DNA from: Paramecium tetraurelia | Lineage: Eukaryota | Direction of reading: 5' to 3' | NCBI GenBank assembly: GCA_000165425.1 | Contig: CT868078.1 | Span: 61,200 to 81,199, forward strand | DNA: 20,000 bases | Part shown: positions 1-20,000 of the stretch, one piece after another | How the letters are laid out: every line of letters starts with the position of its first letter | Position numbering within the stretch: position 1 is the stretch's first letter | The notes under the pieces: model-generated | What the model was told of the DNA's origin: nothing | The model's input: only the letters and a program-made list of their open reading frames with translations | Databases searched by the model: none | Program-made: the position numbers and the translations under genes

Positions 1-3000
1 ATTGCTAGCGGTTATAATTATTTTCGCAAAGTGGAATACATATCTACTTTATATGTTGATAAATACCTGGCCCTTCTCATTAAATTAACATCTGTCAGCC
101 GGACAAGTTTCATGATTGAAGCTTCCACATTATTTAGACTTACAAAGATTATCAAATTTATCATATTCACAATAATTTTCGTACTACAAACAAATACAAG
201 GATCCATAATCTCTTAACAACTTACACAGGTTGAATCTGATAAAGGAACACAGACATCATCACCAATTTAAGCTCCATTACACAAAGAATACTTAATTAA
301 TAGATATCTACATCCTATAACTGAACAAAAATAATCCTCCCCTTCCTCTTCAATTAAAGCACACTATTTACCATTTTGTTAAACTAACATGCAATTTTCT
401 TTGTTTTGAGAAGCACAAAATTGTGAGTTCATACAACTTTTATTTTATTCAAGCCATTCACATTTCTTGTCAATGCATTTCTATTTTATAGTAAAACGAT
501 AACATTCTAATGTCTTACATATTTCCTCAAAAATGCAATCTTGAGGAAATTATTAACAGGTGTAAGCATCTAGACTCTCGCAATCTGGTGAAGTTATACA
601 ATTCTTATTATTTGAATCTCTAAAACATTGTTTGTTCTTTAGGGTATATATCAAGCAATTATTTTAAGGATTCACTATATCATCACATGTTTTTGCCAAA
701 TTGCATTTATTATCCTAGGTTAAATAACATATATCAGTATCTAATTTCTAACCGTCACATTAATCTATTGAATAATAATCGCATGTCCTTCTTAAACATT
801 TTACTAAATTTTAATCGATTATTTCTTAACTAATATCAACATTATATTAAGGATTAGAAGGTGCAACATAACAATAATTTAAATTTTAACATTTTCTGGA
901 ATTTGTGATAAATGAGCAATCTGGATATTAAGTTAGTATAGCCTTACATAGACATTGAGATTAATTCCATTGACAATCTAATAAATCATCGCAGCCAACT
1001 TAATTAATCCCTTTTGTTGAACATATATCCTATAACTCTGATGATATGCAACCATATCCTAAATTATTATATTTACATCTATTCCTTTAAATTTAAGTAC
1101 AAACCTTATGATTAGAAAATAGAGCATCTTCACAATTTAAATTCATCGTTTTTTCATATTTCATACACCTACCTTGTAAATAAACACAATTTTCAATTTT
1201 AGAACATCCAATACCATTAATACCTGGTAGATTACAATTAATTTCTTATTGGGCTTTAAATAAAATGCAATTTCTTATTATAGAATTATAAAAGCAAGGA
1301 GCATCTAAAATTTAAGTGCATACAAATGCATTAACCTAATGATTATAGCCTAAACAAGCATCAAAATCTTGAATTAATTTACATTAATATTATAAAAGAT
1401 AATCATCTTAGACCCATCCACAAGGATAATTTGTGATTTAAAGGCATGCATGCTCATTTAACCCTGGATAATCACAAGAAATTTTAGTTACATCAACTTG
1501 ATCACAATCATTTTCTTTTGATCCACAAGGAAGAGATACTTATATTGATGAACATGATGCAGGGTTAATATTTTTTAAGCTGCAACTACTACTCTATATA
1601 TTAAATTTAAGACATTTTTTTTTTGTGTCATCCCATTTACATTGTTGGTCTTTAATATTCAAACAAGCTTGCTTATTCATACCTTTAAAATCACAAGTTA
1701 GATTCTTTAGATTTGATGCATTTAAGCATTTAAAGTACTTAGTATCACATATTACACTAGAACCATCATTTATTAATCCACATGTATTACAGTTACACTA
1801 AGATAAGGATGAGAAAGATAAAATTTAATTAGTTTCAACATTTTTACATTAATTGTCTTTCCATTAACAAAATGTAACAGGGGTATTAATATTCAAACAA
1901 GCAAGATAACTAAGATTTGAATCACATTAATGACTAGATTGTTGATTGAAATCAAGACATAGTTATTTTTAATTTTGATCCCAAATACATTCGTATAATA
2001 CTTATTATAAGCAAGATAATTTATTCACTTTTTATGAACAGCCTACCACTTATTATTACGTATAATCAGTGCATTGATTTTAAAAGATACACATTTATCC
2101 TTGTTTTACAACATCTAAGCATGTTCTTTCGCTACCCCATTAATCTTATATATCTTAACATCCATCATTAGGATTCTTTACTTTTGTTAAGCATTAGGCT
2201 TTGATAAAATCCCAATAACAAGGTAAATTATTAAATTAAATACATTATTCTTTTGTTTAAACTTATTCACAATGATTTGGTTGAATTTCTACACATCCTA
2301 ATTTATCCAAATTGAAAATACAAATAACATCCTTAATATTATAACATACTTTTCTTGAAACATTATTTAAAGTTAAACATTCTTAATTCGATTCTGAATA
2401 TTATTTACATTCTTCATTTTACCACTAACATAAAAATTTATCCTAAAATAAACAACTTTCAATAGTATTAGCTTAGAAGCAACAATCTTTGATTTTTATA
2501 GGGTCACAGTTAAGAATATTGTAATTAGGTCCGTAACAGTAATTATAGAATTTACATTATAAAGATTATTAAGTATGTGTTAAGCAAGCAATTTAATTCA
2601 AACCTCTTATGCATTAAAATTCTATATCTCCTTGGGCATTTTCGCATTTATGCTCTAAGGAATTGTGTTTGCAAGGAACAGCAAAGATTTGTTCACAAAA
2701 TACTTAGCTATTAATTTAAGAGATACTTTTACAAATACCTGACCGTATTTCTAAATTTATAAGCTCACAAATATTATTTTACTCATTAAATTGACAAAAT
2801 TGTTTTTTTGTAATGATGTTGATGCACCCAATTTTATTTGAAACTTGATTACATTCTAATTATGAATATTCACTAGGATTTATTGCAACACATTTATTTT
2901 ACTCTATTTTACATCCTTCTCTTAAAGGCTTGTTGCATTCATTGACAGGAAATTCACTACAATATTTAATATTCTCAGTTGCCTTTTTTTAATAGCATCC

Positions 3001-6000
3001 ATTTGAAAAAGTACAATCTGAGGATTTTAAATCACATGCCATTTTACTATATCCAAGCTATTCTGGATTAGCATCAACACATTGAATTTGGTTAATCGAT
3101 ATAACCTTCTCGCATGAATACATTTAATTATTAAATTAACAAGCTTCAATTTCATTTACCTAACAAAAAATTCCTGAATTTACTTTCTAAATATTACTGC
3201 AATGAAATGATTTAAAATTTTAAGGATCTTAAAATTAGCAATATTTAATTTACAATTTCGATCATTTGTAGTTGCACAAACTGAAGCTTTAACTATAAAT
3301 TTTAGATTTAGATAAAGATTCACAAGTATCAACTTTTAAATCAATAGATTAACATTTTATTCCATTGAATTTACAATTAGAAGGTAAAGATATACAAGAA
3401 ATCCAATTTAAATATTTTTCAGGAAAACAATTATTAATAGTTTTCAAAGTTTATTATGATGTTTAAATGCAACTATTTTCATTTTAATTATATTCACATG
3501 TTTATAATGTTTTTTATAAACAAGCATACTTATTCATTGTAAATTTATAACAATTATCAATAAAAGGTTATCTATTAGATACATTAATACATCTATTTTA
3601 TATTTCACTATATATCAAACAATCTGTTATTTGTTAATCTATAGCATAACAAACACTTTTAGAATAAACGAATAATAAAGTAGAATTAATGATATCATTA
3701 ATTGTATTTACTTAATGAAGAGAACAGATATTATTCTCAAATTTACATGTTTATTTTTAAGAAATACAAGCCTATTTATTTAATGAATCAAGACATCCAA
3801 TTTAATCATTTGTATTTTCTATACATTAATGTTGTTCATCTTTAAATTAACATTATCTTCTATTGATCTATTAATACAACCAAATTTATTTAATCCTTAA
3901 GTATTACATTTAATTATATCTGTAATAATAGTTTATCTACATTAATAATAATTATCTAAGAAACAACTTGATTGAATCTTTAATTAAGAACAAATGTTTT
4001 AACTAAAATGTGTAATATATGATTATTAAGTATTTGATAATACAGAATTACATGATATTACTTTATCATTTAATATAGCCCATTAACATTTATAAAGATC
4101 TGACCATACACATGACATGATTGATTAATTTAAACATCCAAATTTATTTAAATTCTGAACATTATGTAATTTGATTATCATTCTTCATACACTTTAAATT
4201 AATTGAATCCCATAAACAAGATTCCTTTAATGAAAATAAGCAAAGATCTTCATTTAATAATAAATTACAAGAACCTTAAGTTGGATCAAACTATGTACAA
4301 TAACCAATATTCTAATCAAACCAACAATCTTACTAGAATTATATACAAGCATCTTAATTATAAATTGAACAATCTCTACTATCAGATCCGGTTATTCTAT
4401 CTATTTATTTACATTCATAATCTTCCCATTTACATTTTATCCCTTTTGTCATTTATAAACATGCCTATTTGTTTAATAGGTTGCATTTTGAAACACTTCT
4501 CGTCAGAAGATAATAGCAAATATGATTATTAATGTCATATTAAGTACTAGCACCCTTACATAGAGTGCAGGCTTTCTTTGTTGTGTAATATCCCTTCAAT
4601 TGCTCGCATGTATAATGAGTTGCATCTTCGCATTTATTATTATTAAAACTTTGCATGCCTATTCAACCAAAGTACAAACAATCAGACTTACTCAGAATAT
4701 TTAATTGATTAACTTCATGACATAAATAATATTTGTTTGATGCATCAGGTCTTAGTTATGGAGCAAGTGGATATTATTGGCAATATCCAACAAAATCAAA
4801 TACACAATTGCATTCTTCACAAAGCGATTTACTAAAACTTGAATCACAAATACATTAATTGTATTAATTTTTCTTTATAGTACTAACACAACGATTTAAC
4901 TCAAAGCGACATGGATCTCTTGCTAATGCACAATAAGCAGGAGAAATATCTTAAGTAATAGCATCACAATATATATCTTCAGTCAGAGTCACAGGTTCAC
5001 ATATCTAAATTGGTCTTTATAAAGAGAAGCATTAACTTTAGGTCGGTAATATTTTCATTTATCCAGCTTTACAAATTACTTTTTAATTAGAACTGCTTAA
5101 ACAAGAATTTAAGAAACTGTTAGGTTAGCATTCTGTGCTACTTTTACAAATTTGCTTTTTTGGATCACATTACAAAGCATTTTGAGTAGGTTTACATCTG
5201 CTAGAAATTGATGAACAATTAGGTATTTTATTTTCATTTCCTTTTAATTATTAACATCCTCCTTAATTTAAATCAAAGAAACATTCTTCTAAAACGCCAT
5301 ATAAACAAAGTGATTTTGAGAAAGTATTTTTGCATCTTAATTCAATATAACCAAATCCTTTACAAATAGGAACTACTTTATAAATAGTTTTCTCGAAACA
5401 TTAAGCAAATTTTAGAGTCCAACTTTTGGAAACATAATCAGGACACTAATCATTACTGCAGGAGACTTGACTGTAAGTACATTCTTTATTCTGACATATA
5501 TTTTAATAATAGCTGGTTTGAAAGGTAATATAATCAGTAACAGAAGTATACCCACATTCAAAACTTTCATAGCATGAGGAATATCCTGAATTATTGCATC
5601 TCCCTTGGCAAGATTAATGACCAATTAGAGCATCACTAATAATTTCTTATGGATTTTAGTCACTTTATTGATTGCAGATCATATCACCGTTTTTTTAACA
5701 TCGTTTTGAGCATAATTAATTTTACTTAATACCTAAATACAACGTGCCATCATCATTTATTTTAATTGGATCTTTGTAAATGGTTGGACAATCAGAATCT
5801 GTTTAACAAAGTTTATCTTAATAATCACATGTTTTATTTAAGCCACATTGTAAAGGAGCAGAAGTTCCTGGAAATATTATCTTATTTGTTTTGGAATATA
5901 CTTCTGGGGTTTTTACGAATTAATTGCAGTAATTTGTACAATTATCTATTTAATACCTGTATTCATAAACTGAACTTTTTTCGGTATTTTCTTTATCAAA

Positions 6001-9000
6001 AAATAATACATTTAAAATTTTGACTTAACACCCATAAATTTGATTATGCCATTCACATTTATTTTCATAATTACACTTTTACTTTTTATCTTCACTCCCA
6101 AAACATTTATCTTCAGAATAAGTCTATTTTATTGATTCATCAATGGAAGAGCAAGATAATTTATTATAATGATTTCCATTATATAATTAGGCACCTAAAG
6201 AAGAGCACGTTTAAGACTGAGGAATATCTGCAACTAAACATTATAATTTGGATTTAGAAAAGTAACATTATTTAGAAATATTCATGCAAACTTCAATATT
6301 TATAAGATTGGAAGTTGTACATACTGATTAATCATCTGTGAAAAATTAACATGGAGGCATTTTAGTAGTATCATATACACAATTATATCCTCTTGTCAAA
6401 TATAAGCAAGCATATTAATTTATCATCTAAAAACAGGAGTTTTGATTATTTGAATTTTCAATAAATATACACTTATTTTTCTTATCATCATATGTATATC
6501 CAGCTCCTGTTATCTATAGACAAGATAATGGATTAAACAAATTATTTTTATTTAAATCTCTGAAATCGCTATAAGGAGTTTAATTAAAGGTAACACATTC
6601 ATATAATGAATCATCCCACATGCAAGGTTCCTTAGTTACTTACTTACATAGAACATAATTTAAATTATCATTGCATCCTAATTCAACTATTTATTTTAAT
6701 GACCCTATTTCATAACATGTTGAGTTTTCAATACTCCATCTACAATTTCCCTATGTATTTTTATAGCAAGTATATTTATTAGTTCCGATTACATCACATT
6801 TATTTGAACTTTTATTTGTCAAAATGCATTTATAATTTTACCATTCACATTATTAATTAGGAAGGTCAATTTATGAGCACGACTTTTATGATACATACCC
6901 TTTAGAATCAAAATAGTTACATGGAACATAAGTATAAGCAGTTATGCATCTATCTAAATCAAAAGAAAAAAAACAAGAAGAGTAAATATTTTCTTTACAT
7001 GCTTTAATATTTTAATTCTGATCGCAAGTAGTTATATCTGCAAATTCATCTAATGAGATTGTGACACATTTTAATAGCTTTTTATCCCATTTACAATAAT
7101 TATTTTCGGTAAATCTTAAGCATATATTAGAATTGCCTTGAACATCCTCACATCGTGCATAATATGGAGGTGAAGTTTAATAATTCCTACTAATACAACG
7201 ATGATTTTAAGGATCGTATTCAAAATATTTTTCAATGTTGAAAATAGTTAAGGATGCTTCAATTGCCAAACAAGCAAAACGATTTAAAATAGAAGGAGCT
7301 TCTGTAAAAATTTTATAATTCTTATAGTTTTCAAAGTTGATGTTAACGCATGAAAATCCATTAAAATAACATCTTTAAGAAGTCGACCATTCAATCATAT
7401 GACATGAATTTTTACCCATTTATGAACACTTAAATCCATCAACCTCATTAGCATTATAAAATTGTTTAACAGCTTCTTCATTTTTTATATCAACTTAATT
7501 TTATGTCAATTCTTTACACCTATAATTATCGAAGTAGCAATAACTACTAGAATTCTTGGTTAAAAAACTGCATGAATGTTAATTTATTCCATTAAATCTA
7601 CCTTCAGTACAACAATTTGTTTCACAAAGTTCGTTACCATCTAAGAGATCACAAGAAAAATTATTTGAGTTATATTTACAATAGCCAACTTTTTATTTTT
7701 CATTACTAGGTATATAATCTGGATTTTCCATGATTACAGATGCGCATACATTACTATTAACGTTTTTAAATTCTGTGCATTTTTAATTCATATTCACAAT
7801 GATTTGTCCACATTTATCTAATGTTTCTTTCCATCCACATAATTATCCTGGTTTTGATATTTATTTACATATCTTTTCAGTAGGAGAACTTTTATCACAT
7901 TCTATATCGTCCAAACTGTTAATCGATATTTGATTATTATTCGACTCAGACTCTTAAGAAGAATTTTAGGAAGGAATTTAAGATTTGAAGAGCTGGCATT
8001 CTATAGTAGCCTGATTAAAGTAACATTAATCTTCTAATTAAGCACAAGCAAATGCATTCAAACCAGATGTATCACATTTCATTATTTATTTAACAGAATT
8101 GACGCATCCCTTAGCAGCATTTTCAAATCTACAAGGTTCTGATTTAAATTAAATCATAGCACAACTCTTAGAATTTGAATATATCATTTCTTAACAAGAA
8201 ACATCTGAAAGCTCTTTAGGATTAAAAATCTTAACGCATTCATTTTAATACCACCTACAGGCCGTCTATGGTTTGATTATACTAGCACAAAGTATTCTAT
8301 TTAATCCTAATAATTTGTTTTCACAATCCAATGAAATTAGCAATTAAACTTAAGTTTATAATTAATCTACTTTCTAACATCTTTGATTTGATTTATTATA
8401 ATAACACCCAGATACTTCGTTTTCTATTACTTGAGAACAGGAATTAGGATTTGCATTGCCTAAGCTTTCGCAAGTTGTTTTATATGGCAAAATGACTATA
8501 TATATGCATCCATTAATTGTCCATTAACAAGTTTATTTATATTTTGTTATATTTAAGCAACCAAGAAAATTTAAATACCTGGAATTACAATCATCTTCTG
8601 GAGAGCTTGGAACACATTGTTTTGAAATATCATCATATTTACAAGCTGCATTATTATTTGATATATTTTGACAATAGAGTCCATTATATTTAAACTTGTG
8701 ATTATCTTTAATTTCGCAATTTACTACTTAATTTAAAAAAATTCTTTAACAATTGATTCCATCCCATTAACAATATTAAAATTATGTTTTTATATTAATA
8801 CAAGCCTCTTCATTTAATAACATATCACAACCAAATGTATTTAAATCTTCTTCTGATAAATTCTCACAAAACCCTCTATAAAAAGTGCAATTAGTATTTT
8901 TTATAAGTAGACATGCCTTTTTACTTAATCCAATTTCAGAGCAAGATAAATTATTTAATTAAGATTGAGTTACTTCCTCACAACTTTAAGTTTCAATATT

Positions 9001-9925
9001 ATATGAGCAGATACCATCATAATTTTCACATACTAAATAATTCACATTCACTATTTAATTGCATTCTTGGTTGTCATTTTAAAATATTCTACAACCTTCA
9101 ACTGTCCATTCACATTATAGATTATTGATTTTAGAAGAAAGGCAGGCATGCTTGTTCAGAATGTTATCGCAGGAGTCCAATAAACTTACATCTGTAAATT
9201 TGCACTGATTATCCTTAAATATACCTTCTGTTATGAATTATAAATACAAGTTTGATCCTTAGTGGTAATAGAAATGCATCCGTTTTTATTTAAGCCTTAA
9301 TGAGAGCATTAAATTTCTGAAAGCTCATTTTCTAATAATGTTATGCAATGATAATCCTATTAAATTCCCCCATGAAAACCTATTATTGTTATTAAAATTA
9401 CATTGAAATTTTTCTATTCTTGCACACATTCTAGGAGATACAGCATCATTATAATATTATTCACAACTAGAGTATAACTAATTCACATTATTTGGATTGA
9501 ATTCTTAGCAGTATTCTTACCACATACAATCTTAATTTAATACATTAAGGCAAGAGAACTTGGAGAAATTAAGATTACATCCTAGAGTTTTCAATTGTAA
9601 ATTTGTTACTTAGATACATTTTTCAATAAATAAACCTAGACTTATCACTTCTAACTTACATCTTGCTTCAACTTTTTATTAATCTGTCTGTTGTCCAATG
9701 CAGGCTTTTCTGTTTAAATTATTCCTACAACCGTAATCAGACTACAAGAATTCTATACATTTGTTTTCATCATAATTATATTAACCTATTATAAGAAAAT
9801 AATTTACATTATGTGTCTTATATCTTTTAGACACATGAAATTGAGTCATAAGGATATAAACTACAAAAATTTCCAGCCTAACAACACCATTGGATTAAAA
9901 AAATTATCAATATTTAGTAAAGCAT
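1..9925 (-). CDS. Gene A: giant cysteine-rich repeat protein with N-terminal signal peptide (probable surface/secreted protein); 3' end outside the window; frameshifted in this sequence, so possibly a pseudogene
   Basis: With table 6 it reads MLYQILIIFLIQWCCQAGNFCSLYPYDSISCVQKIQDTQ-C-QYNYDENKC... from ATG 9925-9923. Periodic units such as GLNKxAC...CxW...C continue to position 1. Introns at 9786-9807, 9636-9659, 9380-9401, 9225-9247 and 44-66. No in-frame TGA from 9224 to 4681 or from 3240 to 67. Frame disruptions near 4645-4681, 4153, 3858 and 3241-3299. Colinear with gene B. Confidence 0.93.
44..66 (-). other. Gene A downstream intron (23 nt, phase 0)
   Basis: CAG|gtatttatcaacatataaagtag|ATA TGT. 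Gives ...CQFNEKGQ-ICIPLCENNYNRQQ. Confidence 0.8.
3690..4470 (-). repeat. Inverted repeat, left arm (inside gene A coding sequence); near-identical to 19223-20000
   Basis: The reverse complement of 3690-4470 (781 nt) matches 19223-20000 (778 nt), with 8 substitutions and 2 small indels by manual comparison. Full extent unknown because the right arm leaves the window. Confidence 0.97.
9225..9247 (-). other. Gene A intron 4 (23 nt)
   Basis: ACT T|gtatttataattcataacagaag|GT. Restores the frame; matches B intron 4. An alternative in-frame AG lies 3 nt upstream. Confidence 0.85.
9380..9401 (-). other. Gene A intron 3 (22 nt)
   Basis: CAA T|gtaattttaataacaataatag|GT. Restores the frame; matches B intron 3. 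Confidence 0.9.
9636..9659 (-). other. Gene A intron 2 (24 nt, 3n, no in-frame stop)
   Basis: AGA T|gtaagttagaagtgataagtctag|GT. Same position as B intron 2 (VEAR-C vs VEKR-C). Confidence 0.8.
9786..9807 (-). other. Gene A intron 1 (22 nt, phase 1, inside a Cys codon)
   Basis: T|gtaaattattttcttataatag|GT. Removal restores the frame; same position as B intron 1. Confidence 0.9.
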
Positions 9926-11399
9926 TTTTAAATTTATTATTATTCAATTTACTCAATTAATCATGTGATAGCATAATTTTCATTTTGAATTAAACTAAGA
10001 TTAAATATTATTATCATATAACTACTGTTTTTATTAATTTATCAAAATTTCTTTTATTTATTCAAGAGCATCTTTATATATATAAATCGATTTCAATATT
10101 TGAGAATTGAACAAAAGCAATAATATTGATTAGATATTAAAAATATTTATTATTTACTCAAATCTATTCTCTAAATTTGGAGGCTTTGTTATTAATTGAT
10201 CTCACTCTTCATCTAATATAGATTACTTAGTAAAAATAATATAAATTCTTATGATTTAAGAAATAGAATTAATTTTTATTATAAATAGCAAAATAAAAAA
10301 GATATATTATTTTCTTTTAATTGTTTATTAATAATGCTATCTTTTGGTTTAAGGAGAAATATCCTTTGGAATAATAATAATCTTGCCTAATTTTAGAAAT
10401 GGCAACAGAATATCATTTTGTATATTTTATTTTATGTATTTTTTTGCAAAAGTCTATTTCATTTGAAAAGTAATTAATTCATGAAAAAATATAATAATTG
10501 AATTGTTTATAATTTCAAAATAATATTGATAATATTGTAAAGTTGTGAAGCAATATTTTATTTCCAAAAATGTAATAATATTAAAGATTACATTATTTCA
10601 TATTTAGCTCTAAAATTTATTAATTAATGCTATTAGCACATAAAATAACGCAAATGGTGTACAAAAATGTAAGAATTTATTAAAATTTGATCACATTTAG
10701 GCTACTTATATTAAAGAATGAATCTGAATAACGTAATCAAGTAGAGCTAGCAGAGAGAAATAGAATCTTCCTAATTTATAGTTTTGATGAATAAAAAAAT
10801 CGGCTAGCTAGCTTAACCAATCCAATTCAATAAAATCTAATATAGAACATTTAGGCAATTTTTGCTTTTATAAATAGAAGACCTTACATTAAAAGGAATC
10901 TTACTTGAAATCTTTTAATGCATTTTGGTTAATGATTACAATAGTGATAAACTTCTAGCGCTTGTATTTTTGTTGACAGTTTATAAAATTGAAATATTGC
11001 CAGACCAAGGGTTCAACATATAGTTCGAAATCAATTATAATTTATATTTTATTCTAGCAGGACCAATCCTATAAAATAAAATTCTTTTAATTTCTTTAGA
11101 TCATAACTATAGATTTCTAAAATAATCATTATCATTAATAAATATCTGACCTATTTAAAATTTCAGAATTCTACACATTCCAAACAATTATAAAACTCCC
11201 TTGATTGAAGTTATCAGATATTCCATTCTGGTAAATACCTTATTCTATGACATACGCAATTGCAGATCTTTAATTTTTAATTGATTCAGTTTTCTTAAAG
11301 AGTTCTCCTCTTCAAGAGATTTTGCATAATTATTCGAGGATGTGTTTTTGATGGTATTTGAAGAGGAATGAACTTCATCATTTTCGTCAACATAGCAGC

Positions 11400-12980
11400 A
11401 ATACAACCTCCTTTTTTCTTCCGTGGATTCAAAATCATCATACGCCTCATCATCTTAAATGCTTATGATCTTTTGTCTTTACAGTGAGATCTTCTGTAAT
11501 TCGGCTATTTTCTTATTGCAACAAACGATCTAATGCTTCTTATTCTGGACTACTAGGGCTATTTAAAAGTTACCTCTGAGCTTATGAGAGCATGATCTGA
11601 CAATTTATTGAAACTGCAATTACTTAAATTAGTTATTATTAAATCATTTTTGAATTTAATCGCTTTCTTTGCTCATCTGAAGGTATTCAGATTTGATTTA
11701 ATAAATTCTAAATTTTGTTAATTTCACTTTTGGTTTGTTAAATCTTCACAAATAGAGATGCATTAACATAATTTAAATCAATGAGTTTCCTAAGATGGAT
11801 CCTTTATCTCATCGAAAAATTATTTGTAGAAAGGAATAGATATAGATTTATCCTCAAATTATCCAAGAGCGAGGAAGTCCTAGAGCAATCCTCAAGGAGG
11901 ATTGTCATTTGACTAGTGATTTTAATTCTTGAACCCTAAGTAAGAAGACCTGAATCTGGCCTTAGAAGACACTAAGATTTTGGGAATACTATTACCGTTC
12001 CTTTTCCATTGGTTCTTAAATAATGATGATCTCTATAATCTATCTAAGACCGAAAGGACAAAATTACTCCAACTTTAAGATCGAGTTTTGTAGTCTTTAG
12101 TTTTCCTTCAAATTTTAAATACTTCTTACTTTAAATTTGAAGGAAGAACCATTTAATTAGCACTTAGAAAGTTATTGTAGCCTTTTTGTGAGGATAGATA
12201 ATAATGCTTTTAAAATGAATTACAGGAATAATAAAAGGAATGAATCTTAAATGTCTATCATGATGATGGAAAATATAGCACCGCCAATTTTTTAAGATAT
12301 ACAAAGACAATTTTATTTGGACCTTAAATAAAGTTGGAGCTGACGATATTGTAATTGGGAAAAAGCATAAAAATACTGAAAGTTCTTAGGAATACATGAA
12401 GAAACTAGCCAGAGTTGGAATCTCAAAATTAACAAATTGAAATCTGCCTTCTTGTTCATCAACGCGAAATTTCAAAAGATTACACTTACCTGGGTATACA
12501 AATGTAAAACTATGGTTAATTAAAAAATCACATAAATAATATGGAAAAAAAAAGTGCTAACAAAATGTTAAAATGGATAGGTTAGTTTATGCTAACTGAT
12601 TAAAAGACACTATTTGGCAATTATTAATAAAATCCTTCTATAATTATAGCATAGAGGAAATGAAAAATTGCCAATTTAAAGGTAGCAAAAATTAATTCTA
12701 GAATTTGATCTTAGGTCAATCAAATAAATATAATAATTACCAAAATGTAGGACCACTAAGATAATAGAGATGATCATAAAATGCCAAAATAAGTAAAACT
12801 TACCTGAGATTTTTTCTATACTTCTGTAAAATTCTCATAAAATATATATATAAACACAACACACATGAAAATTTTCATCGCTTGATAAAAGATCACCTAA
12901 AATTGGATATAGATGTGTAACATTATGAAATATTTTTTATAAAAGAATCAAATTTATAAATAAATAAATAAATAAAAAAA
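11400..12980 (+). mobile_element. Degenerate non-LTR (LINE-like) retrotransposon relic, APE endonuclease plus reverse transcriptase; 5' boundary uncertain (may extend to ~10600)
   Basis: Motifs occur in the canonical order but across broken frames: ILDY...*SDN (11542-11604, like APE IDY..SDH); FQFLNPKQEDLNLALEDTKILGILLP (11920-11997, like RT1-2 K..RPI); IAP/FFKIYKD (~12275-12310, like RT4 LSPxLF..Y.D); ADDIVI (12339-12356, RT5 YADD); WNLKINKLKS (12416-12445, RT6); YTYLGI (12481-12498, RT7); WQLLIKSFYNYS (~12615-12650, thumb-like); then a (TAAA)5 tail. Confidence 0.75.
12957..12980 (+). repeat. (TAAA)5 plus A4 tract, probable 3' tail of the retroelement
   Basis: taaataaataaataaataaaaaaa, ~300 nt downstream of the last RT-thumb-like motif and on the same strand. 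Confidence 0.6.
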
Positions 12981-13687
12981 GAATAAATACAAAACTATTA
13001 TTATTATTATTAACATTAACACACTTATAATCCTTTAAATTCAATTGGTTTCACTGGTTCTTAAATGAAGATAGATAGTTGTCTTTTTATTCTTTTTTTT
13101 GTCTTCTTAACTTAGTTCTTATTAATCAGCTTATCCAGCTTAAGAAGTATAGTATGGTATTATATTATGTGTTTACATGATGATGGAAATTGGTGCTCTA
13201 TGCATAATTTATTAGATAATTTAAATAATTACCGAAAGTTATCTGGTAGCAAATGACCTATTCGAGATAGGGGTAGAAAAAATTATAATTTGTTGACACT
13301 TTCATTGATTTAAATATCTCTTATTTTCATCTTTTGTGCTGCTTTTTCAGAGAAAATGTTGCGATACTTATTATGGTAATTTTTTTGAAAGTCAAAGAGT
13401 AGTTTAAAAATGTATTGTATAATTATCCAATTTTAGTTTTTGAAATTTTATTATTTTAAATATAGATGGAAGAATATTGAGAAAAATGGGGCATTAAGGA
13501 TATTAAATCTAAAAGAAGGAGGAATTTGTAGATGTTATACAAGATAAATTCATTCACTCTTACTCAAAAATCAAGTTGTAAAAAGATTAATAAAATAGTT
13601 TCATTATTGATTAAATAAATTTCCCTTTAAGAATGAGTCATTATTTTTCTCCAATAGTTATATTAAAATTAAAATTCTTCTAAATAA

Positions 13688-16600
13688 ATGGCTTTCAAAC
13701 TCATTTGCTTGTTTGTTTTTACATTAGCAGGATGTAATTGCAAATGCAATTAAAATGAATATGATCCAGCTATCTGTATTTTATAGATAACTGATTCAAA
13801 ATGTATTTAATAAAAGTTTATTGAATAGGCTTGTATGATGAATTTCTGAATCAGTGCATAGAAACTAGTAATTAAAATTTAGGTTGTTCTTATTATTTGA
13901 ATCGTAATGCTTGTATAAATTAATTAACGATTAGTGGAAATGTTGAGAAGAGATGTAAATAATAATTTATATATAGGCATATTTTAGAATAGGTGTATAG
14001 ATGTTAACATATACCATCTGAAAAATTTAGGTTGCAGCGATTCATTTTCAAAATATGCTTGCATTAATGTAGTTAATAAAGATTGTTTTTGGAATGGTTC
14101 TTAATGTGAAGATTCTTAAAAGATTATATTTTCAGATAATTCGAAAGAAGAAATATATCCATACTCTGTTACTCCATAACTATGTGCTAAATATCATAAA
14201 TATCCTTGTAAATGAAATTAATAATAAAGGTATCAATACAGGACCACAAGGAGATTATAAATGTGTTATAATTAATTAGAATATAATTTAAAGAATTAAA
14301 ATGTTCGACCTTGGGTTTAAATGAAATAGGATGTGTTTCAATTTTGACGCAGAATGAAATGTGTAATTTTGTATATCATATTAGGCCTCTTTGAAAATAA
14401 TTAATGTAAAACCATAAACCCTTCAAAGATGATAGAATGCTCTTAAAAAATAAACAAATTAGCTTGTTTATCTATTACAACACCTAATTTATTATGTCAA
14501 TGGTAACAAAATGAATGCCGTGTTTATAAATTTGATCAATAAGTTACATGTCTAGACATTGTTGATGTTAACATAAATGTATGTGCTAATTAAGAAGGTT
14601 TATGTATGTTTGATTAATTAAATTACAAATGTACATAGTTAAATTAAAAATAATTGGAATATTTAAATTGCGATACTCCTGGAATAACAAAATTTGCTTG
14701 TTTATCCATCTAAAATTAATATTGTACTTTCAATTAAGGGTTTTGTCAAACATTATCTGAAAATGATTTAAGTAATTATTAATGTTAAATGCAATTAAAT
14801 TAAGCAGCTTGTATTAATATTAAGACAAAAGGTTAATTATGTTTATGGAATGGATAAGGTTGTTAAAATGTAGAAATTACTTAAGATTAAGATTGCAATA
14901 ATTTCGATCGATTTTTAGTTAATGGAAATGTTTGTTAAGCAATCAAAAAGCCATATGCAATGTGTAAATATGATGAAATAACTAAAATTTGTGTTAAAAG
15001 TTCAACAAATGATTATTGTACTACTCCATATTTAAATTTATATGGATGTGTAAGTATTTCAAGAGAGAATTAGACTTGTAAATGGATAGATTAAAGCTGT
15101 TAAGATATTGTAATAATACCATTTGAAACACTTTGTAGTAGTTTGGAATATGCAAATTATTAAGCATGTCAACAAGTATTTGAAAATAATTCAATGGGTT
15201 GTTATCATGATTAGAAAAGATCCTAATGTGTATCTTTATTAATAAGCACCGATAACGAAACTAATATAAATCTACAGGAGATACAAAAGGCTAATTAATA
15301 TTTATCAACTGTTTCATGTTTTGATAAATCTTTAGGATTGAATAGAATCATATGTGGATCTATCACTACAGAAAATGTATTTTGCAGATGGCAATAGAAT
15401 AGTTGTAAATTTATGAAAAAAGAAGCTATTGCTAATATTCCTTGTACAGATCTAAAATATGCTAATCCATCAACGTGTGCTTAAGTAAAATACAACAATG
15501 AATTTTGCAGATATTTTAAAGAAGAAAAAGGATGTACAAATCAATTAAAAGGTGAAATGAATTGTAATGATCTTGGGCTTAATTCAATTAGTTGTAATAA
15601 AGCAAAAGAGAATTGTTACTATGACAAAGATAGATGTTAGAGTATTGGAGAAATTTCAACTTAAATTACTCCAGAGGTTTAAATCATTTTATAAAAACTA
15701 ACGTGCTAATCTAATTTTCCAACAGAAAGAATTTGCTTAGCAATATAAACACCAGGTTAATTGTGCACATGGTCCAATAAATATTAATAATGTAGAGAAA
15801 TCTAAGTTCCTCAAAATAAAAAATGTTCAGATTTTTCTTTGTTTCAAGTTAATGCTGATGTTTGTGCTTAAATTAATTTGGGTAAATCATTAATACCATT
15901 TTAGAAACGAAAATATCTTTTGATCAGGATCCTGGTTTTTGTGAATATGATAGATAAAAAAAGAATTGTAGAGAAAAAATCAAAAAGTGTACTTCCAAAT
16001 GTTGTTCAGAAAATGAAGAAATAGGAATAAATGCATATTCATGCAGTAGATTCTCTAGTCAAGAACCAGGAGTTTATTGTATTTTTTAAGAATCCAGATG
16101 TTTGCAACTTACAAACTAAATTGTGGATATCTTAAATCATAATGCTGTAAAGAGTTACTACAATGAAAAAAAGTATACTTGTGCTTAAATGAATAAGAAT
16201 TCTTGTCATATGATTGATTGGTCAACTTCTTAAGCTTGCTATTATAATGGATTTGCTTGTATAAATTTGAATTTATAAAGTCATTTTGACTTTTAAGAGT
16301 TGACAAAATCTTCTGCAATTGTTAATATATATGTCTGCTTAGCAATTGAAGTTGTGAATAGTGTTAACTTAAGTCAGAAATATATTGAGTATAATTAAGC
16401 AGGGAAAAAACTGTAAACTACTTCTACAACCATATCCATAATATTAAACTTGTGAAAGTGTAACTGGAAATTCTAACATTTGTTTAGGTCTTACTAGTAA
16501 TCTTTATTGTAAATGGAACAAAGAATTGTTAAAATGTGTTACAATTACAGAAGATTAATAATAAGAAATCCTCACATGCAATGAATATCAAAATATCAAA

Positions 16601-19600
16601 TCATGCTTAGAAAATTAATACTCAGCGTGCCAATTCTCTCTTGCCTAAGATAAATGTATTAATGCACCTTTAGATCAGGATTGCTCATATTTCAATACTA
16701 CAGGTAAAGTAAGTAGGAAAACTTGTTCATTAATAACGAAAAGTGGCTAAATTTGTGAATTTAAAAATAATTATTGTGTTGATTCTAACAAATCTATTGA
16801 AGGATGTAATTTAGATGGAATTAATAAAAGAGGTTGTTTTAAGAATACTAAAGGAAATTGCAGATGGGATGATGTCTCAGGTTAATGCTATGAAAATAAA
16901 ACACTATTATAAGAATTGGAATGTAATAATAATTTAAATTAAATCTTATGTATGAAAGTAACTAAGTAACCATGCATGTGGAATGATGATCAATATTAAT
17001 GTGTTTATTTTAATCAAATGACTAAAGATCAATATTTAGAATAAAATCCTAAGAATTAATATAATCAATGGGCTTGTACCCTAATAGTTGGTGCTGGATA
17101 CACATTTGATGCAGATAATCATAAATGCAAATTACTAGATAATACTTAAAATTTTGGATGTTCTGATATTTAGATGAATAATTATGCATGTTAATTTTTA
17201 ACAAAAGGTTCAAATTGTTATTTTGATTAAAATGAAAAACCTCCAAAATGTAAAATTTTCAATATGGATCAAACCATTTGCTCATCTAAATATGCCATAA
17301 ATATTGAAGTCTGTATGAATATACCTAAATCATGTAAATTTTCACTTCGGACAATGTCTTGCTAAACACTAATAGTAAATTAAGATAACACTTGTTTATA
17401 TCTTTAAGGTCTATAAAATAAAGGAGAATACGTAAATAAACTAGGATGTTCCTCAATATCTGAATCTTTGCAAGGCAATGATGGAGAACAGTAATGCTAT
17501 TAAACTAAAGATCTTTAGCAAAAGTGCAATTATTAAAAATTTTGTCTTTGGAATAATTATACTTGCAAAGTAAGCGAATAATAAATTCATATATTTGATA
17601 ATAAACACTACATCCCAAGTGAATAATTTTATTGGGAGTTTAAGAAAAATAATTGTACTAGTAATACTGATTGCAACGAATTTATTACATTTCATGAATT
17701 TTAAAGTGATGGCTTAACTTATCCTGGCAAGAGTGATTAATTAAAATGTGGATTAGGTAGATGTGATTATACAAATGAACCATGTTCTTAGAAAACCGAT
17801 TGTTAAGATATTTCTATCGAAAATCTTTAGGTTAATGATGATGGCTCAATTAAATAACCAAAAATGTAGGCTTAGACTTGTCAATCAACTTGTTAAAAAT
17901 CTTTAGATGTTTAAGAATGTAAATCTTCTGAAATGGTTCCAAAGGAAGTGATATAACCAGCTATCATTAATTACTAATAATGTTAAGGAAGATGTTAAAC
18001 TTCAAAAGAAATCTGTGTGAGTCATATATGTGGAGAGAGTATATTATTTCCAGCAATAACAGTAAAGTGTGAGAGCACTGATTGTCAAATTAAAGATTGT
18101 AAGGGTTGTGATAAGGACGATTGTGCTGGTAAATATTGTGAAATAACAGATTGTGAGGATGAAAAAGGTAAGGATTGGAAATGTAAAAGTTATAAAGATG
18201 TTAAAGTAATAGAATATTGTTAATTGGAAAGTTTTATATGTTCGGAAAGTCATAAATCATGTAAGAAAGAATTGGATTGTTTGCCATTTGTACAATAATC
18301 TTGGTAATTTGAGAATGCAACATGTAAAAAACACTAAATCTATATTAAATCTGAAATCTGCAAAGGGTTTATTTATCTACAATTAAAATGTCAAAATATT
18401 TTTTCTAAAGCTCTTTGTCTTTAAATGACAAATCCAACCTGTTTTTTTGATATTAATTAAGGAGGTTGTAATTATCTTGAAGGAAATGAAGATAAAGTTC
18501 CAAACTGCGATAGCATAAAAAATACTCGCAAACCAACTAATTAATGTGAGAACTTTATGAATATTTGTAGATTTAGTGGTTAGTAAGAAAATGAATATCA
18601 AAATACATGCCAAGCAGTATCTTCAAAAAATCTGAATTGTGAGGATGGTATCGAATAAAATGTTGCAGATGATTCATGCCCTTCAAACACACTAAGTTAT
18701 AAAAATTGTGTCAAGGGTTTAAATCTCTAAAATTCAGATTGTTTATGGGTTCTTAATCCATCAATATTTAATTGCGCTGCAGTAGCTGATTATTGTCGAT
18801 ATTCAAATGGGGTTTGTATATCTGATCAGAATACCTATCCATGTAAATGCGATAAAAGCTTCAGTAAATCTTGGTGTGAATTTTGTAAATGCAACTTCGA
18901 TTTGCTTGGATACTGTTAACTTGAGAGTAAACCTATTCAAAAATTACCTGACAATTCTAATCAATATTATTTATGTTATTAGGTGAATTTGTTACCAATT
19001 GATGCTGATGGTAAAAAAAAAGTTTGTGGAATGGTTGATTAAGCATGTCGATACACTTTTACATGTGAAGATGCAACTCATTTTAGTTGCGATTACCTTT
19101 TAAATTTTGTGGTTTCTAAAAGAGCTTGTATCAGGTGCAATTCTTTGAGTGTTTATTATAATGAAAAATTATAATTTTGTTTCTAATTGGATGCTGATAT
19201 AAAAACATGCGATCTGTTAAATAAATAGGCATGTTTATAAATGACAAAAGGGATAAAGTGTAAATGGGAAGATTATGAATGTAAATAAATAGATAGAATA
19301 ACCGGATCTGATAGTAGAGATTGTTCAATTTATAATTAAGATGCTTGTATATAATTCTAATAAGATTGTTGGTTTGATTTGAATATTGGTTATTGTACAT
19401 AGTTTGATCCAACTTAAGGTTCTTGTAATTTATTATTAAATGAAGATCTTTGCTTATTTTCATTAAAGGAATCTTGTTTATGGGATTCAATTAATTTAAA
19501 GTGTATGAAGAATGATAAAGAAATAACATAATGTTCAGATTTAAATAAATTTGGATGTTTAAATTAATCAATGATATCATGTGTATGGTCAGATCTTTAT

Positions 19601-20000
19601 AAATGTTAATGGGCTATATTAAATGATAAAGTAATATCATGTAATTCTGTATTATCAAATACTTAATAATCATATATTACACATTTTAGTTAAAACATTT
19701 GTTCTTAATTAAAGATTCAATCAAGTTGTTTCTTAGATAATTATTATTAATGTAGATAAACTATTATTACAGATATAATTAAATGTAATACTTAAGGATT
19801 AAATAAATTTGGTTGTATTAATAGATCAATAGGATAATGTTAATTTAAAGATGAACAACATTAATGTATAGAAAATACAAATGATTAAATTGGATGTCTT
19901 GATTCATTAAATAAATAGGCTTGTATTTCTTAAAAATAAACATGTAAATTTGAGAATAATATCTGTTCTCTTCATTAAGTAAATACAATTAATGATATCA
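13688..20000 (+). CDS. Gene B: paralogous giant cysteine-rich repeat protein with signal peptide; 3' end outside the window; two +1 frameshifts in this sequence
   Basis: From ATG 13688 it reads MAFKLICLFVFTLAGCNCKCNQNEYDPAICILQITDSK-C-LYDEFLNQC... Introns at 13803-13828, 13955-13976, 14208-14229, 14363-14384 and probably 15882-15904. It aligns with A throughout, e.g. B MNKNSCHMIDWSTSQACYYNGFAC vs A MGKNSCHMIEWSTSQRCYFNGFSC. There is one extra base at ~14280 and one in the A6 run at 16405-16410. Confidence 0.93.
13803..13828 (+). other. Gene B intron 1 (26 nt)
   Basis: AAA T|gtatttaataaaagtttattgaatag|GC. Restores the frame. Confidence 0.9.
13955..13976 (+). other. Gene B intron 2 (22 nt)
   Basis: AGA T|gtaaataataatttatatatag|GC. 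Restores the frame. Confidence 0.9.
14208..14229 (+). other. Gene B intron 3 (22 nt)
   Basis: CCT T|gtaaatgaaattaataataaag|GT. Restores the frame. Confidence 0.9.
14363..14384 (+). other. Gene B intron 4 (22 nt)
   Basis: ATG T|gtaattttgtatatcatattag|GC. Restores the frame. Confidence 0.9.
15882..15904 (+). other. Gene B putative intron 5 (23 nt), absent from gene A
   Basis: TTG G|gtaaatcattaataccattttag|AA ACG. Removal gives QINLETKISFDQDPGFCEY and restores the Cys frame. Confidence 0.7.
19223..20000 (+). repeat. Inverted repeat, right arm (inside gene B coding sequence); truncated by the window edge
   Basis: Begins aaataggcatgtttataaatgacaaaaggg and is still matching at base 20000 (equivalent to 3690). 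Confidence 0.97.

What the first reader, a model, noticed from the sequence alone, without database searches (positions are those of the whole stretch)
3690..20000. Head-to-head surface-protein paralogues with diverged N-halves and a near-identical downstream block: gene conversion, or a 14.75 kb invertible cassette that could swap variable regions
Seen: A and B are transcribed divergently. Their first ~1800 codons align only as diverged proteins (e.g. ICKGFGYIELRCKNTFSKSLC vs ICKGFIYLQLKCQNIFSKALC). At the homologous, in-frame position 4470/19223 identity jumps to ~99% at the DNA level, silent sites included, for at least 778 bp. Established: silent-site identity next to deep divergence points to recent gene conversion or recombination, not protein-level selection. 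Crossover between inverted repeats flips the DNA between them. Inference: flipping 4471-19222 would exchange the two promoter+N-terminal modules between the two C-terminal modules without breaking either frame. That is a variable/constant architecture able to make chimeric surface proteins, possibly with both orientations present in the polyploid macronucleus. No recombinase is encoded in the window.
Basis: partly seen in the sequence, partly recalled or inferred. Interest (0 to 1): 0.85.

Follow-up and report, generated by a model that had tools for sequence, protein, structure and literature searches.

The report
Gene-conversion block in Paramecium paralogues
Two head-to-head genes for giant cysteine-rich secreted proteins of Paramecium tetraurelia share a nearly identical 1.2 kb tail that was most likely copied between gene-family members by gene conversion, an ordinary process, and nothing seen here points to a flip-switch.

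Summary
Window 3690-4470 and 19223-20000 are inverted copies with 8 mismatches and 3 gapped bases in 781 nt. Upstream, the two genes share only 26-60% of residues and about 50% of third codon positions.

The organism is Paramecium tetraurelia (macronuclear DNA). The block is not private to this inverted pair:
- A third paralogue (C) on the same 81 kb contig carries it. At all 5 residues where A and B differ in the block, A matches C.
- Independent DNA contigs show 2.2-2.6x depth over 3201-4400, and contigs leave the window sequence at 3240 and 4448.

The block is therefore about 1.23 kb (3240-4470). It includes the stop codon TGA 3262-3264.

Best reading: non-allelic gene conversion from the B/C lineage into the distant paralogue A. 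Two P. pentaurelia paralogues show the same pattern.

The invertible-cassette idea is untested. Because the arms run to a stop codon, a flip would re-create almost the same two proteins.

The frameshifts and in-frame TGAs in arm A are probably draft-assembly insertions that independent reads lack.

The parts
3240..4470 (-). Homogenised block, copy in gene A: the last ~400 codons, the stop codon and 22 nt beyond it. The window can only compare 3690-4470 with B.
   Evidence: The inner edge comes from the A/B alignment. The outer edge comes from 2 DNA contigs of run X3 that leave the window sequence at 3240. X3 depth is 308-363 over 3201-4400, against about 135-165 in the flanks. Over 3265-3689, A differs from C's protein at 1 of 142 residues.
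19223..20000 (+). Homogenised block, copy in gene B, cut by the window end. The frame is open throughout.
   Evidence: 8 mismatches and 3 gapped bases against 3690-4470. The B frame is open from 16358 to 20000.
4471..4489 (.). Transition zone at the inner edge, mirrored at 19204-19222. It holds 5 mismatches in 17 nt, and identity collapses beyond it.
3262..9925 (-). Gene A, a giant Cys-rich protein with a hydrophobic N-terminus. Start codon at 9925-9923, a 23-nt intron starting at 9221, and stop at TGA 3264-3262. The NCBI model P0006 (1732 aa) stops early at TGA 4663.
   Evidence: P0006 maps to 9925-4666, and its last 1508 residues equal the window translation. Run X17 splices 23 nt at 9221. 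With the 6 unsupported bases dropped, the frame has 0 stops in 1876 codons from 9324 to 3690, and the first stop is at 3262.
13688..20000 (+). Gene B, a paralogue of A, with its start codon at 13688 and an open frame to the window end. The frame switches around 13.7-14.4 kb and 15.9-16.4 kb; these are introns or draft errors and were not resolved.
1..3261 (-). Downstream Cys-rich ORF (NCBI model P0007, 1088 aa). It is in the same frame as gene A directly after TGA 3262. It has no signal peptide by eye, a hydrophobic C-terminal tail, a weak PF01508 match and a 23-nt intron starting at 44.
   Evidence: Run X17 splices 23 nt at 44.
3262..3264 (-). Stop codon TGA inside the block. C's protein P0004 ends at the same codon.
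3858..3859 (.). 2-nt insertion in arm A relative to B. It is absent from every contig laid there (X3 depth 313 of 313; X17 7.32 of 7.32), so it is a probable draft error.
4153..4153 (.). 1-nt insertion in arm A relative to B. It is absent from X3 depth 276.1 of 288.7 and from X17 2.7 of 2.7. Together with 3858-3859 it creates the false TGA at 4066.
4645..4682 (.). Two further unsupported insertions in A-unique sequence: 2 nt at 4645 and 1 nt at 4682. Both are absent from X3 depth 129.4 of 129.4. Together they create the false in-frame TGA at 4663 that ends the NCBI model.
   Evidence: Without them the reading aligns with B across this stretch.
9926..13687 (.). A 3.76 kb spacer between the two divergent start codons. 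No Pfam domain, tRNA or Rfam match was found. No RNA contig or read lies on 10401-12000.

Best explanation
The window is Paramecium tetraurelia macronuclear DNA. It holds two members (A on the minus strand, B on the plus strand) of a clustered family of giant, roughly 10%-cysteine, signal-peptide-bearing proteins. A 1.23 kb 3'-terminal module has been copied between family members by non-allelic homologous recombination, that is, gene conversion. The module comprises about 400 codons, the stop codon and 22 nt beyond it.

The module is native to the B/C lineage and was pasted into the distant paralogue A, most recently from a C-like donor. Because the macronucleus is rebuilt at each sexual generation, the event must have happened in the germline micronucleus. 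The inverted orientation of A and B is incidental.

**Shown:**
- the identity step, silent sites included;
- at least 3 copies;
- incongruent relationships inside and outside the block;
- support for multiple copies from independent reads.

**Inferred:**
- the mechanism;
- its direction;
- that it took place in the germline.
For: 1. **Identity step.** Third-position identity is 0.38-0.70 upstream and 0.92-1.00 in the block. Of the 8 substitutions in 781 nt, 3 are synonymous and 5 are not.
2. **Third paralogue C.** C (P0004/P0005) is listed with the same 81,199-nt longest contig as A and B, so it probably lies on the same contig. Upstream of the block, in 466 ungapped columns, B=C-only occurs at 175, A=C-only at 27 and A=B-only at 20. 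In the block, 256 of 261 columns are identical in all three and 5 are A=C-only. Distal to the window end of B, A differs from C at 1 of 142 residues.
3. **Direction.** B and C stay 77-100% identical in the 160 columns before the block, where A is 26-57% identical to B. The two contigs that leave A at 3240 agree with each other at 0.88.
4. **Independent DNA contigs (run X3).** Depth is 308-363 over 3201-4400, against about 135-165 on both sides. Contigs have loose ends at 3240 and 4448.
6. **Literature.** Passages read in PMC4235209 place serotype isogenes on the same small macronuclear chromosome and propose gene conversion between them. [quoted passage not shown]
Against: - C's DNA and B's sequence past 20000 were not available, so all three-way comparisons are at protein level. 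B's stop codon and outer edge are inferred from contigs that I cannot assign to B or C.
- A and B share only about 50-60% nucleotide identity next to the block, which is low for starting homologous recombination.
- Against the single-ORF P. pentaurelia homologue P0010, A's outer junction lacks roughly 220 residues. One end of the event may therefore have been non-homologous, or a deletion came with it.
- Depth from k-mer contigs is not a copy number.
- The window differs from run X3 at many places. One search lists 40 substitutions and says 32 more are not shown, so part of the fine detail may be draft error.
Confidence: 0.8

Rival explanations
1. The two 1.23 kb inverted arms act as substrates for homologous crossover. 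The 14.75 kb between them then exists in both orientations, in the ~800n macronucleus or in the germline. In the reader's version, this shuffles N-terminal modules between different C-terminal modules to make chimeric surface proteins.
For: - The arms are inverted, 99% identical and long enough for homologous recombination.
- The frame is kept across the arms once the unsupported bases are removed.
- A Cys-rich ORF with a hydrophobic tail follows the block in A in the same frame. The P. pentaurelia homologue P0010 has block-like and tail parts in one ORF. If TGA 3262 were bypassed, distinct C-terminal parts would exist to be swapped.
Against: - The block ends in a stop codon, at which C's predicted protein also ends. 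A flip would therefore rebuild the same two proteins, differing at no more than 5 residues.
- At least 3 copies share the block, and A is closest to C, not to B.
- No recombinase domain appeared in the ORFs scanned.
- No strand-changing joint appears in the tables, but those data cannot span the repeat, so this is weak.
Confidence: 0.06
2. Assembly artefact. One arm, or its placement, is a product of collapsing or mis-joining near-identical reads in the Sanger draft, so the inverted pair does not exist as drawn.
For: - The draft is error-prone here. Six inserted bases in 1.03 kb, and many substitutions, are contradicted by independent contigs.
- PMC3464196 (passages read) reports 10,339 spurious 1-2 nt insertions in the draft, and small scaffolds partly redundant with larger ones.
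- P0009 on this contig is nearly identical to P0008 on a 534,934-nt contig.
Against: - Independent DNA contigs show raised depth over the block and different flanks at both edges, so the block really is multi-copy.
- The arms carry copy-specific differences. B differs from A and C at 5 residues.
- Each arm continues in frame from its own diverged upstream sequence.
Confidence: 0.07
3. The block has stayed identical through long-term concerted evolution since the A versus B/C split. Repeated conversion under selection for a constant C-terminal module would explain it, in place of one recent transfer into A.
For: - The same architecture recurs in P. pentaurelia paralogues.
- Surface antigens of Paramecium are described as having conserved ends and variable centres (PMC4235209, introduction passage).
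Against: - B/C similarity runs well beyond both edges of the block, while A's begins and ends abruptly. That pattern fits a tract that is foreign to A.
- The closest P. pentaurelia relative of the block is only 41% identical, so the sequence is not slow-evolving.
Confidence: 0.15

Closest known systems
Paramecium tetraurelia surface-antigen (SAg) isogene clusters (Baranasic et al. 2014, PMC4235209; passages read)
   Same: Large cysteine-rich secreted proteins. Highly similar copies lie on the same small macronuclear chromosome. The authors propose gene conversion between intrachromosomal copies. They had to re-assemble reads by hand because of errors in the automated assembly.
   Different: A, B and C give no PF01508 match at E up to 10 (P0006, P0004, P0005) or up to 0.01 (P0001, P0002). 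Only the downstream ORF P0007 matches, at 24.6 bits and E 3.5e-5, far from the paper's cut of 1e-9. The genes here have introns. The paper discusses conversion as a possibility; the passages I read show no tract.
Segmental gene conversion in antigen gene families of parasites (Trypanosoma VSG, cited in PMC4235209; Plasmodium merozoite surface proteins, PMC10919680, search listing and abstract only)
   Same: Mosaic paralogues with tracts of near identity, silent sites included, next to deep divergence.
   Different: There is no evidence here of an expression site, of switching, or of any role in antigenic variation. Paramecium is free-living.
Arm-to-arm gene conversion in large inverted repeats, such as the palindromes of the human Y chromosome (recalled, no call)
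   Same: Inverted copies on one chromosome kept near-identical by intrachromosomal conversion. Such arms can also mediate inversion.
   Different: Here the arms are only 1.23 kb, sit inside coding sequence, and have at least one further partner (C).
Bacterial and phage invertible DNA switches and shufflons (Hin/Gin/Rci type; recalled, no call)
   Same: Inverted repeats flank a segment whose flipping would re-pair 5' and 3' gene parts.
   Different: Those systems use short specific sites and an adjacent site-specific recombinase, and the swapped parts differ. Here no recombinase domain was found in the ORFs scanned. The arms are long coding homology, and what lies beyond them follows a stop codon.

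Membership tests
Interlocus (non-allelic) gene conversion tract | Abrupt step from diverged to near-identical sequence, silent sites included | tested here: met
   Third-position identity is 0.38-0.70 upstream and 0.92-1.00 in the block. There are 8 substitutions in 781 nt.
Interlocus (non-allelic) gene conversion tract | Relationships among three or more paralogues differ inside and outside the tract | tested here: met
   Outside the block, B=C-only occurs at 175, A=C-only at 27 and A=B-only at 20 of 466 columns. Inside, A=C-only occurs at 5 and the other two patterns at 0 of 261 columns.
Interlocus (non-allelic) gene conversion tract | The copies are real and separate loci, not an assembly collapse | tested here: inconclusive
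   Independent contigs show 2.2-2.6x depth and different flanks at 3240 and 4448. No read spans an arm, so the flank pairings are unverified.
Paramecium surface antigen (SAg) family as defined in PMC4235209 | Eight-cysteine periodicity detected by Pfam PF01508 at E <= 1e-9 | tested here: not met
   There was no PF01508 match for P0006, P0004 and P0005 at E up to 10, nor for P0001 and P0002 at E up to 0.01. P0007 matched at E 3.5e-5 and 24.6 bits, above Pfam's own cut-off of 21.2.
Paramecium surface antigen (SAg) family as defined in PMC4235209 | N-terminal ER signal and C-terminal GPI-anchor signal or transmembrane segment | tested here: inconclusive
   By eye only. A and B begin with hydrophobic stretches, and P0007 ends in one. 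As annotated, no single reading frame holds both. No signal-peptide or GPI predictor was available.
Site-specific invertible DNA switch | A recombinase gene in or beside the invertible segment | tested here: not met
   Pfam scans of 6 ORFs between and around the arms, and of the large ORFs, gave no recombinase, transposase or integrase domain. Only ORFs of 150 aa or more under code 6 were considered, and not all of them were scanned.
Site-specific invertible DNA switch | Both orientations present in one population of molecules | not testable with these tools
   Only 58-nt RNA reads and k-mer contigs could be laid, and only one lay was allowed.
Site-specific invertible DNA switch | Inversion changes the product, by swapping gene parts or re-pointing a promoter | tested here: not met
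   The arms run to TGA 3262-3264, 22 nt inside the outer edge. The two arm-encoded tails differ at 5 of 261 residues.

The most novel reading that the evidence does not exclude
The block could be the constant middle of three-part giant genes: a variable N part, the homogenised block, and a variable anchor-bearing C part, as in the single-ORF P. pentaurelia homologue P0010. The TGA at its end would then be bypassed, or would be recent. Crossover between the inverted arms of A and B, in the germline or among the ~800 macronuclear copies, would re-pair N parts with anchor parts. Conversion among three or more copies would keep the junction module constant. That would amount to a combinatorial surface-protein system in a free-living ciliate.
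Probability: 0.05. Interest if true: 0.7.

Novelty: new member of a known kind. Interest (0 to 1): 0.3.

Why it matters
- It is a clean, bounded example of interlocus gene conversion in a clustered Paramecium gene family. A donor lineage, a recipient and both tract edges can be named. For the classical surface-antigen isogenes, the passages I read (PMC4235209) propose conversion without showing a tract.
- It shows that the deposited gene models here are wrong. Four spurious 1-2 nt insertions in the draft cut gene A from about 2,190 codons to the 1,732-residue model P0006.
- The tract carries a stop codon into A directly ahead of an in-frame, anchor-bearing ORF. Conversion may therefore have split a gene of about 3,300 codons. 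This is testable with polished sequence and full-length cDNA.
- It does not reveal a new kind of switch.

Tried and rejected
- **Whole genome:** none is held for this window. B past 20000 and C's DNA could not be read.
- **Earlier findings of this scan:** none by place or by sequence.
- **Protein family and fold:** Pfam gave nothing for A, B or C. The ESM Atlas gave no usable hit by features and TM <= 0.28 by structure. PDB sequence search gave 0 hits at E <= 1.
- **Window-wide scans:** tRNA, Rfam and tandem-repeat scans each gave 0. The spacer ORFs gave no Pfam family at curated level.
- **Tiny 3n intron to remove TGA 4663:** a 33-nt GTAAG...ATAG candidate exists. I rejected it in favour of draft insertions, because DNA contigs of single-copy depth lack 3 bases there, and the corrected reading aligns with B.
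- **Intron across TGA 3262:** the only candidate is 50 nt and not a multiple of 3. Rejected.
- **1-nt deletion at 3300:** seen in X3 depth 267.8 of 580.4 and X17 3.1 of 3.1. If placed in A it gives a cysteine-poor reading, so I assign it to another copy. Unresolved.
- **Laying reads:** I laid only 1-12000, which holds one arm, because the tool says it turns away stretches with a long repeat. The B side was therefore not examined with reads.
- **Joints:** the 7 skip joints have sides of 21-34 letters, and I treat them as repeat noise. A further entry in table 5c (8782 to 6236, 14 letters between, seen in both X3 and X17) was not followed up. No joint is listed as a change of strand.
- **Poly(A) RNA reads:** they were too sparse (55 and 67 reads laid) to settle transcript ends.
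Full report
**What the window is.** Under the ciliate code (TAA/TAG = Q) the window holds very long open frames on the minus strand of 1-9.9 kb and on the plus strand of 13.7-20 kb. A protein search names the source as Paramecium tetraurelia macronuclear DNA, on a contig of 81,199 nt. The NCBI model P0006 (1732 aa) maps to 9925-4666 on the minus strand, and its last 1508 residues equal the window translation. P0007 (1088 aa) equals the minus-strand ORF of 1-3255 for 1019 residues, up to an intron. GC content is 20-30%.

**The observation.**
- The inverted repeat is real.
- 3690-4489 against the reverse complement of 19204-20000 gives 784 matches, 13 mismatches and 3 gapped bases. Eight of the mismatches lie in 3690-4470 and five in 4471-4487.
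- I built a protein-guided codon alignment of A and B over 1137 aligned codons and cut it into 50-codon windows. Upstream of the block, amino-acid identity is 0.26-0.60 and third-position identity 0.38-0.70. In the window that straddles the edge they are 0.60 and 0.64. In the block both are 0.92-1.00.
- Of the 8 substitutions in the block, 3 are synonymous and 5 are not.
- A run of 426 positions without a substitution has a chance of about 1e-110 at 55% background identity.
- The two genes are head to head. The A start codon is at 9925 and the B start codon at 13688.

**Frameshifts in arm A are probably draft errors.**
- As written, arm A has +2 nt at 3858-3859 and +1 nt at 4153 relative to B. 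This puts a TGA in frame at 4066.
- Upstream, an in-frame TGA at 4663 ends the NCBI model.
- I laid two contig sets and two raw RNA runs on 1-12000.
- In DNA run X3, all depth lacks the 2 nt at 3858 (313 of 313), nearly all lacks the 1 nt at 4153 (276.1 of 288.7), and all lacks 2 nt at 4645 and 1 nt at 4682 (129.4 of 129.4, single-copy depth in A-unique sequence).
- Run X17 splices 23-nt introns at 44 and 9221 and so behaves as a transcriptome. It also lacks the bases at 3858 and 4153.
- With these six bases left out, the A frame has 0 stops in 1876 codons from 9324 to 3690. Around 4663 the reading now aligns with B.
- The paper that polished this species' Sanger draft reports removing 10,339 spurious 1-2 nt insertions (PMC3464196, methods passage read).
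- So gene A most likely runs from 9925 to TGA 3262, about 2,190 codons. The arm is intact coding sequence.

**Extent and copy number of the block.**
- B's copy is cut by the window end, so I could not align past 20000. No whole genome is held.
- Two X3 contigs that match the window above 3240 carry unlike sequence below it, and they agree with each other at 0.88. Another contig leaves at 4448 on the inner side.
- X3 depth is 363, 338 and 308 in the bins 3201-3600, 3601-4000 and 4001-4400. It is about 135-165 in 1-3200 and 100-176 in 4801-9200. Such depths are not copy numbers, but they fit two to three or more copies.
- The block is thus about 1.23 kb (3240-4470). It contains the stop codon TGA 3262-3264, 22 nt from its outer edge.

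**A third copy.**
They are not encoded in the window.
- P0004 (909 aa, paralogue C) carries the block and ends at the same codon as A's TGA 3262.
- In a three-way protein alignment, the 466 ungapped columns upstream of the block split as follows: 159 all alike, 175 B=C-only, 27 A=C-only, 20 A=B-only, 85 all different.
- In the 261 block columns, 256 are alike in all three and 5 are A=C-only.
- Beyond the window end of B, A and C differ at 1 of 142 residues.
- B and C are themselves a mosaic, with 17-100% identity in 40-column windows. They stay 77-100% identical in the four full 40-column windows (columns 400-559) before the block, where A is 26-57% identical to B.
- So the block belongs to the B/C lineage and is foreign in A. 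A's copy is closest to C, not to its inverted partner B.
- A search for longer proteins carrying the block found only P0003 (the window's B), P0004, and two P. pentaurelia proteins at 41% and 37% identity.

**The same pattern in a sibling species.** Silent sites could not be checked there. The recurrence fits a family in which 3' parts are repeatedly homogenised.

**What the proteins are.**
- A, B, C and the downstream ORFs have 8-11% cysteine, with spacings mostly of 7-10 residues.
- A and B start with hydrophobic stretches. P0007 ends in one.
- Pfam finds nothing in A, B or C even at lenient thresholds. It finds one weak Paramecium surface-antigen domain (PF01508, 24.6 bits, E 3.5e-5) in P0007.
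- The published definition of the SAg family is PF01508 at E <= 1e-9 (PMC4235209, passage read). By that definition these are not SAg genes. 'Surface protein' is an inference from signal-like N-termini, cysteine richness and the tail.
- Atlas and PDB searches gave nothing usable.

**Mechanism.**
- The best reading is non-allelic gene conversion between clustered paralogues. A tract of about 1.23 kb was copied from a C-like donor into A.
- The abrupt edges, the identity at silent sites and the incongruent relationships are shown. The mechanism, its direction and its germline setting are inferred.
- One complication: the P. pentaurelia homologue P0010 holds block-like (residues 1-252) and P0009/P0007-like (403-1639) parts in one ORF. 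Measured against it, A's junction at 3240 skips roughly 220 residues. The outer end of the event may therefore have been non-homologous, or joined to a deletion.
- The ORF that follows TGA 3262 in A is in the same frame and cysteine-rich from its first codons. It has no signal peptide by eye. So the tract may have carried the donor's stop codon into a once-longer gene A and split it.

**The invertible-cassette idea.**
- Crossover between 1.23 kb inverted arms is physically possible, and I could not test for it. The data allowed were 58-nt reads and k-mer contigs.
- The functional claim fails on anatomy. The arms run to a stop codon, so both recombinant genes would encode the same proteins as before, differing at no more than 5 residues.
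- Chimeras would arise only if TGA 3262 were bypassed, and I have no evidence for that. Poly(A) RNA reads are absent from 2801-4000 in both raw runs. Those runs gave only 55 and 67 laid reads, so this is weak.
- No recombinase domain was found in the ORFs scanned.

**Assembly caveat.**
- One search lists 40 substitutions of X3 against the window and says 32 more are not shown. They include a patch of 14 changes in 5876-5914, which alters 8 residues in a run of 10 and keeps the frame.
- P0009 on this contig is nearly identical to P0008 on a 534,934-nt contig.
- The literature warns of partly redundant small scaffolds.
- The multi-copy nature of the block is supported independently. The pairing of each arm with its flanks is not.

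**Verdict.** The cassette half is unsupported and, on present anatomy, would have no effect on the proteins. This is a new example of a known process and is of modest interest.

Noticed in passing
window 3858-3859, 4153, 4645-4646, 4682: Four 1-2 nt insertions in the window sequence are absent from independent DNA and transcript contigs. They create false in-frame TGAs at 4066 and 4663 and truncate the deposited gene model P0006 (1732 aa) by about 460 codons.
   Followed up: yes
window 1-3264 (minus strand): The ORF after TGA 3262 (P0007) is in the same frame as gene A and is cysteine-rich from its first codon. It has no signal peptide by eye, but it has a hydrophobic tail and a weak PF01508 match. 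The P. pentaurelia homologue P0010 holds both parts in one ORF. A may be a gene of about 3,300 codons split by a stop codon that the tract imported.
   Followed up: partly
window 5876-5914: Run X3 differs from the window at 14 positions within 39 nt, at full depth. The change alters 8 residues in a run of 10 and keeps the frame. It could be a strain difference, a micro-conversion patch or a draft error.
   Followed up: partly
window about 9200-12000: X3 contig depth falls from about 135-175 over 1-9200 to about 76-110 from about 9300 onwards. The contig that covers 9314-12000 matches the window with 0 differences. GC content does not explain the fall. It could reflect heterogeneity of macronuclear chromosomes or a duplicate of the gene-A region.
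   Followed up: no
window 9926-13687: A 3.76 kb spacer lies between the two divergent start codons. It has no recognisable gene, and no RNA was laid on 10401-12000. From recalled knowledge, this is unusually long for the compact Paramecium genome.
   Followed up: partly
window 3300: A 1-nt shorter T run is seen in X3 depth 267.8 of 580.4 and in the only X17 contig there. Placed in A it would give a cysteine-poor reading, so it probably belongs to another copy of the block.
   Followed up: partly
window 2801-4000: No poly(A) RNA reads from either raw run lie here, although reads lie on both sides (1-2800 and 4001-6000). Any reads from the B and C copies of the block should also have been laid on its part of this stretch (3240-4000). 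Counts are low (55 and 67 reads laid in all).
   Followed up: no
P0008 and P0009 (outside the window): P0009 on the 81,199-nt contig and P0008 on a 534,934-nt contig are nearly identical over hundreds of residues. This could be a further conversion or duplication, or redundancy between scaffolds.
   Followed up: no
   Followed up: partly
window 6801-7600 and 8401-8800: The few RNA reads laid here have the opposite orientation to those on the rest of gene A. This hints at low-level antisense transcription.
   Followed up: no
window 6564-6717 / 16886-17033: One 50-codon window inside the diverged part has raised nucleotide and third-position identity (both 0.70). It coincides with a 106-nt inverted match at 78% (6579-6684 / 16913-17018). 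It may be an older conversion patch.
   Followed up: no
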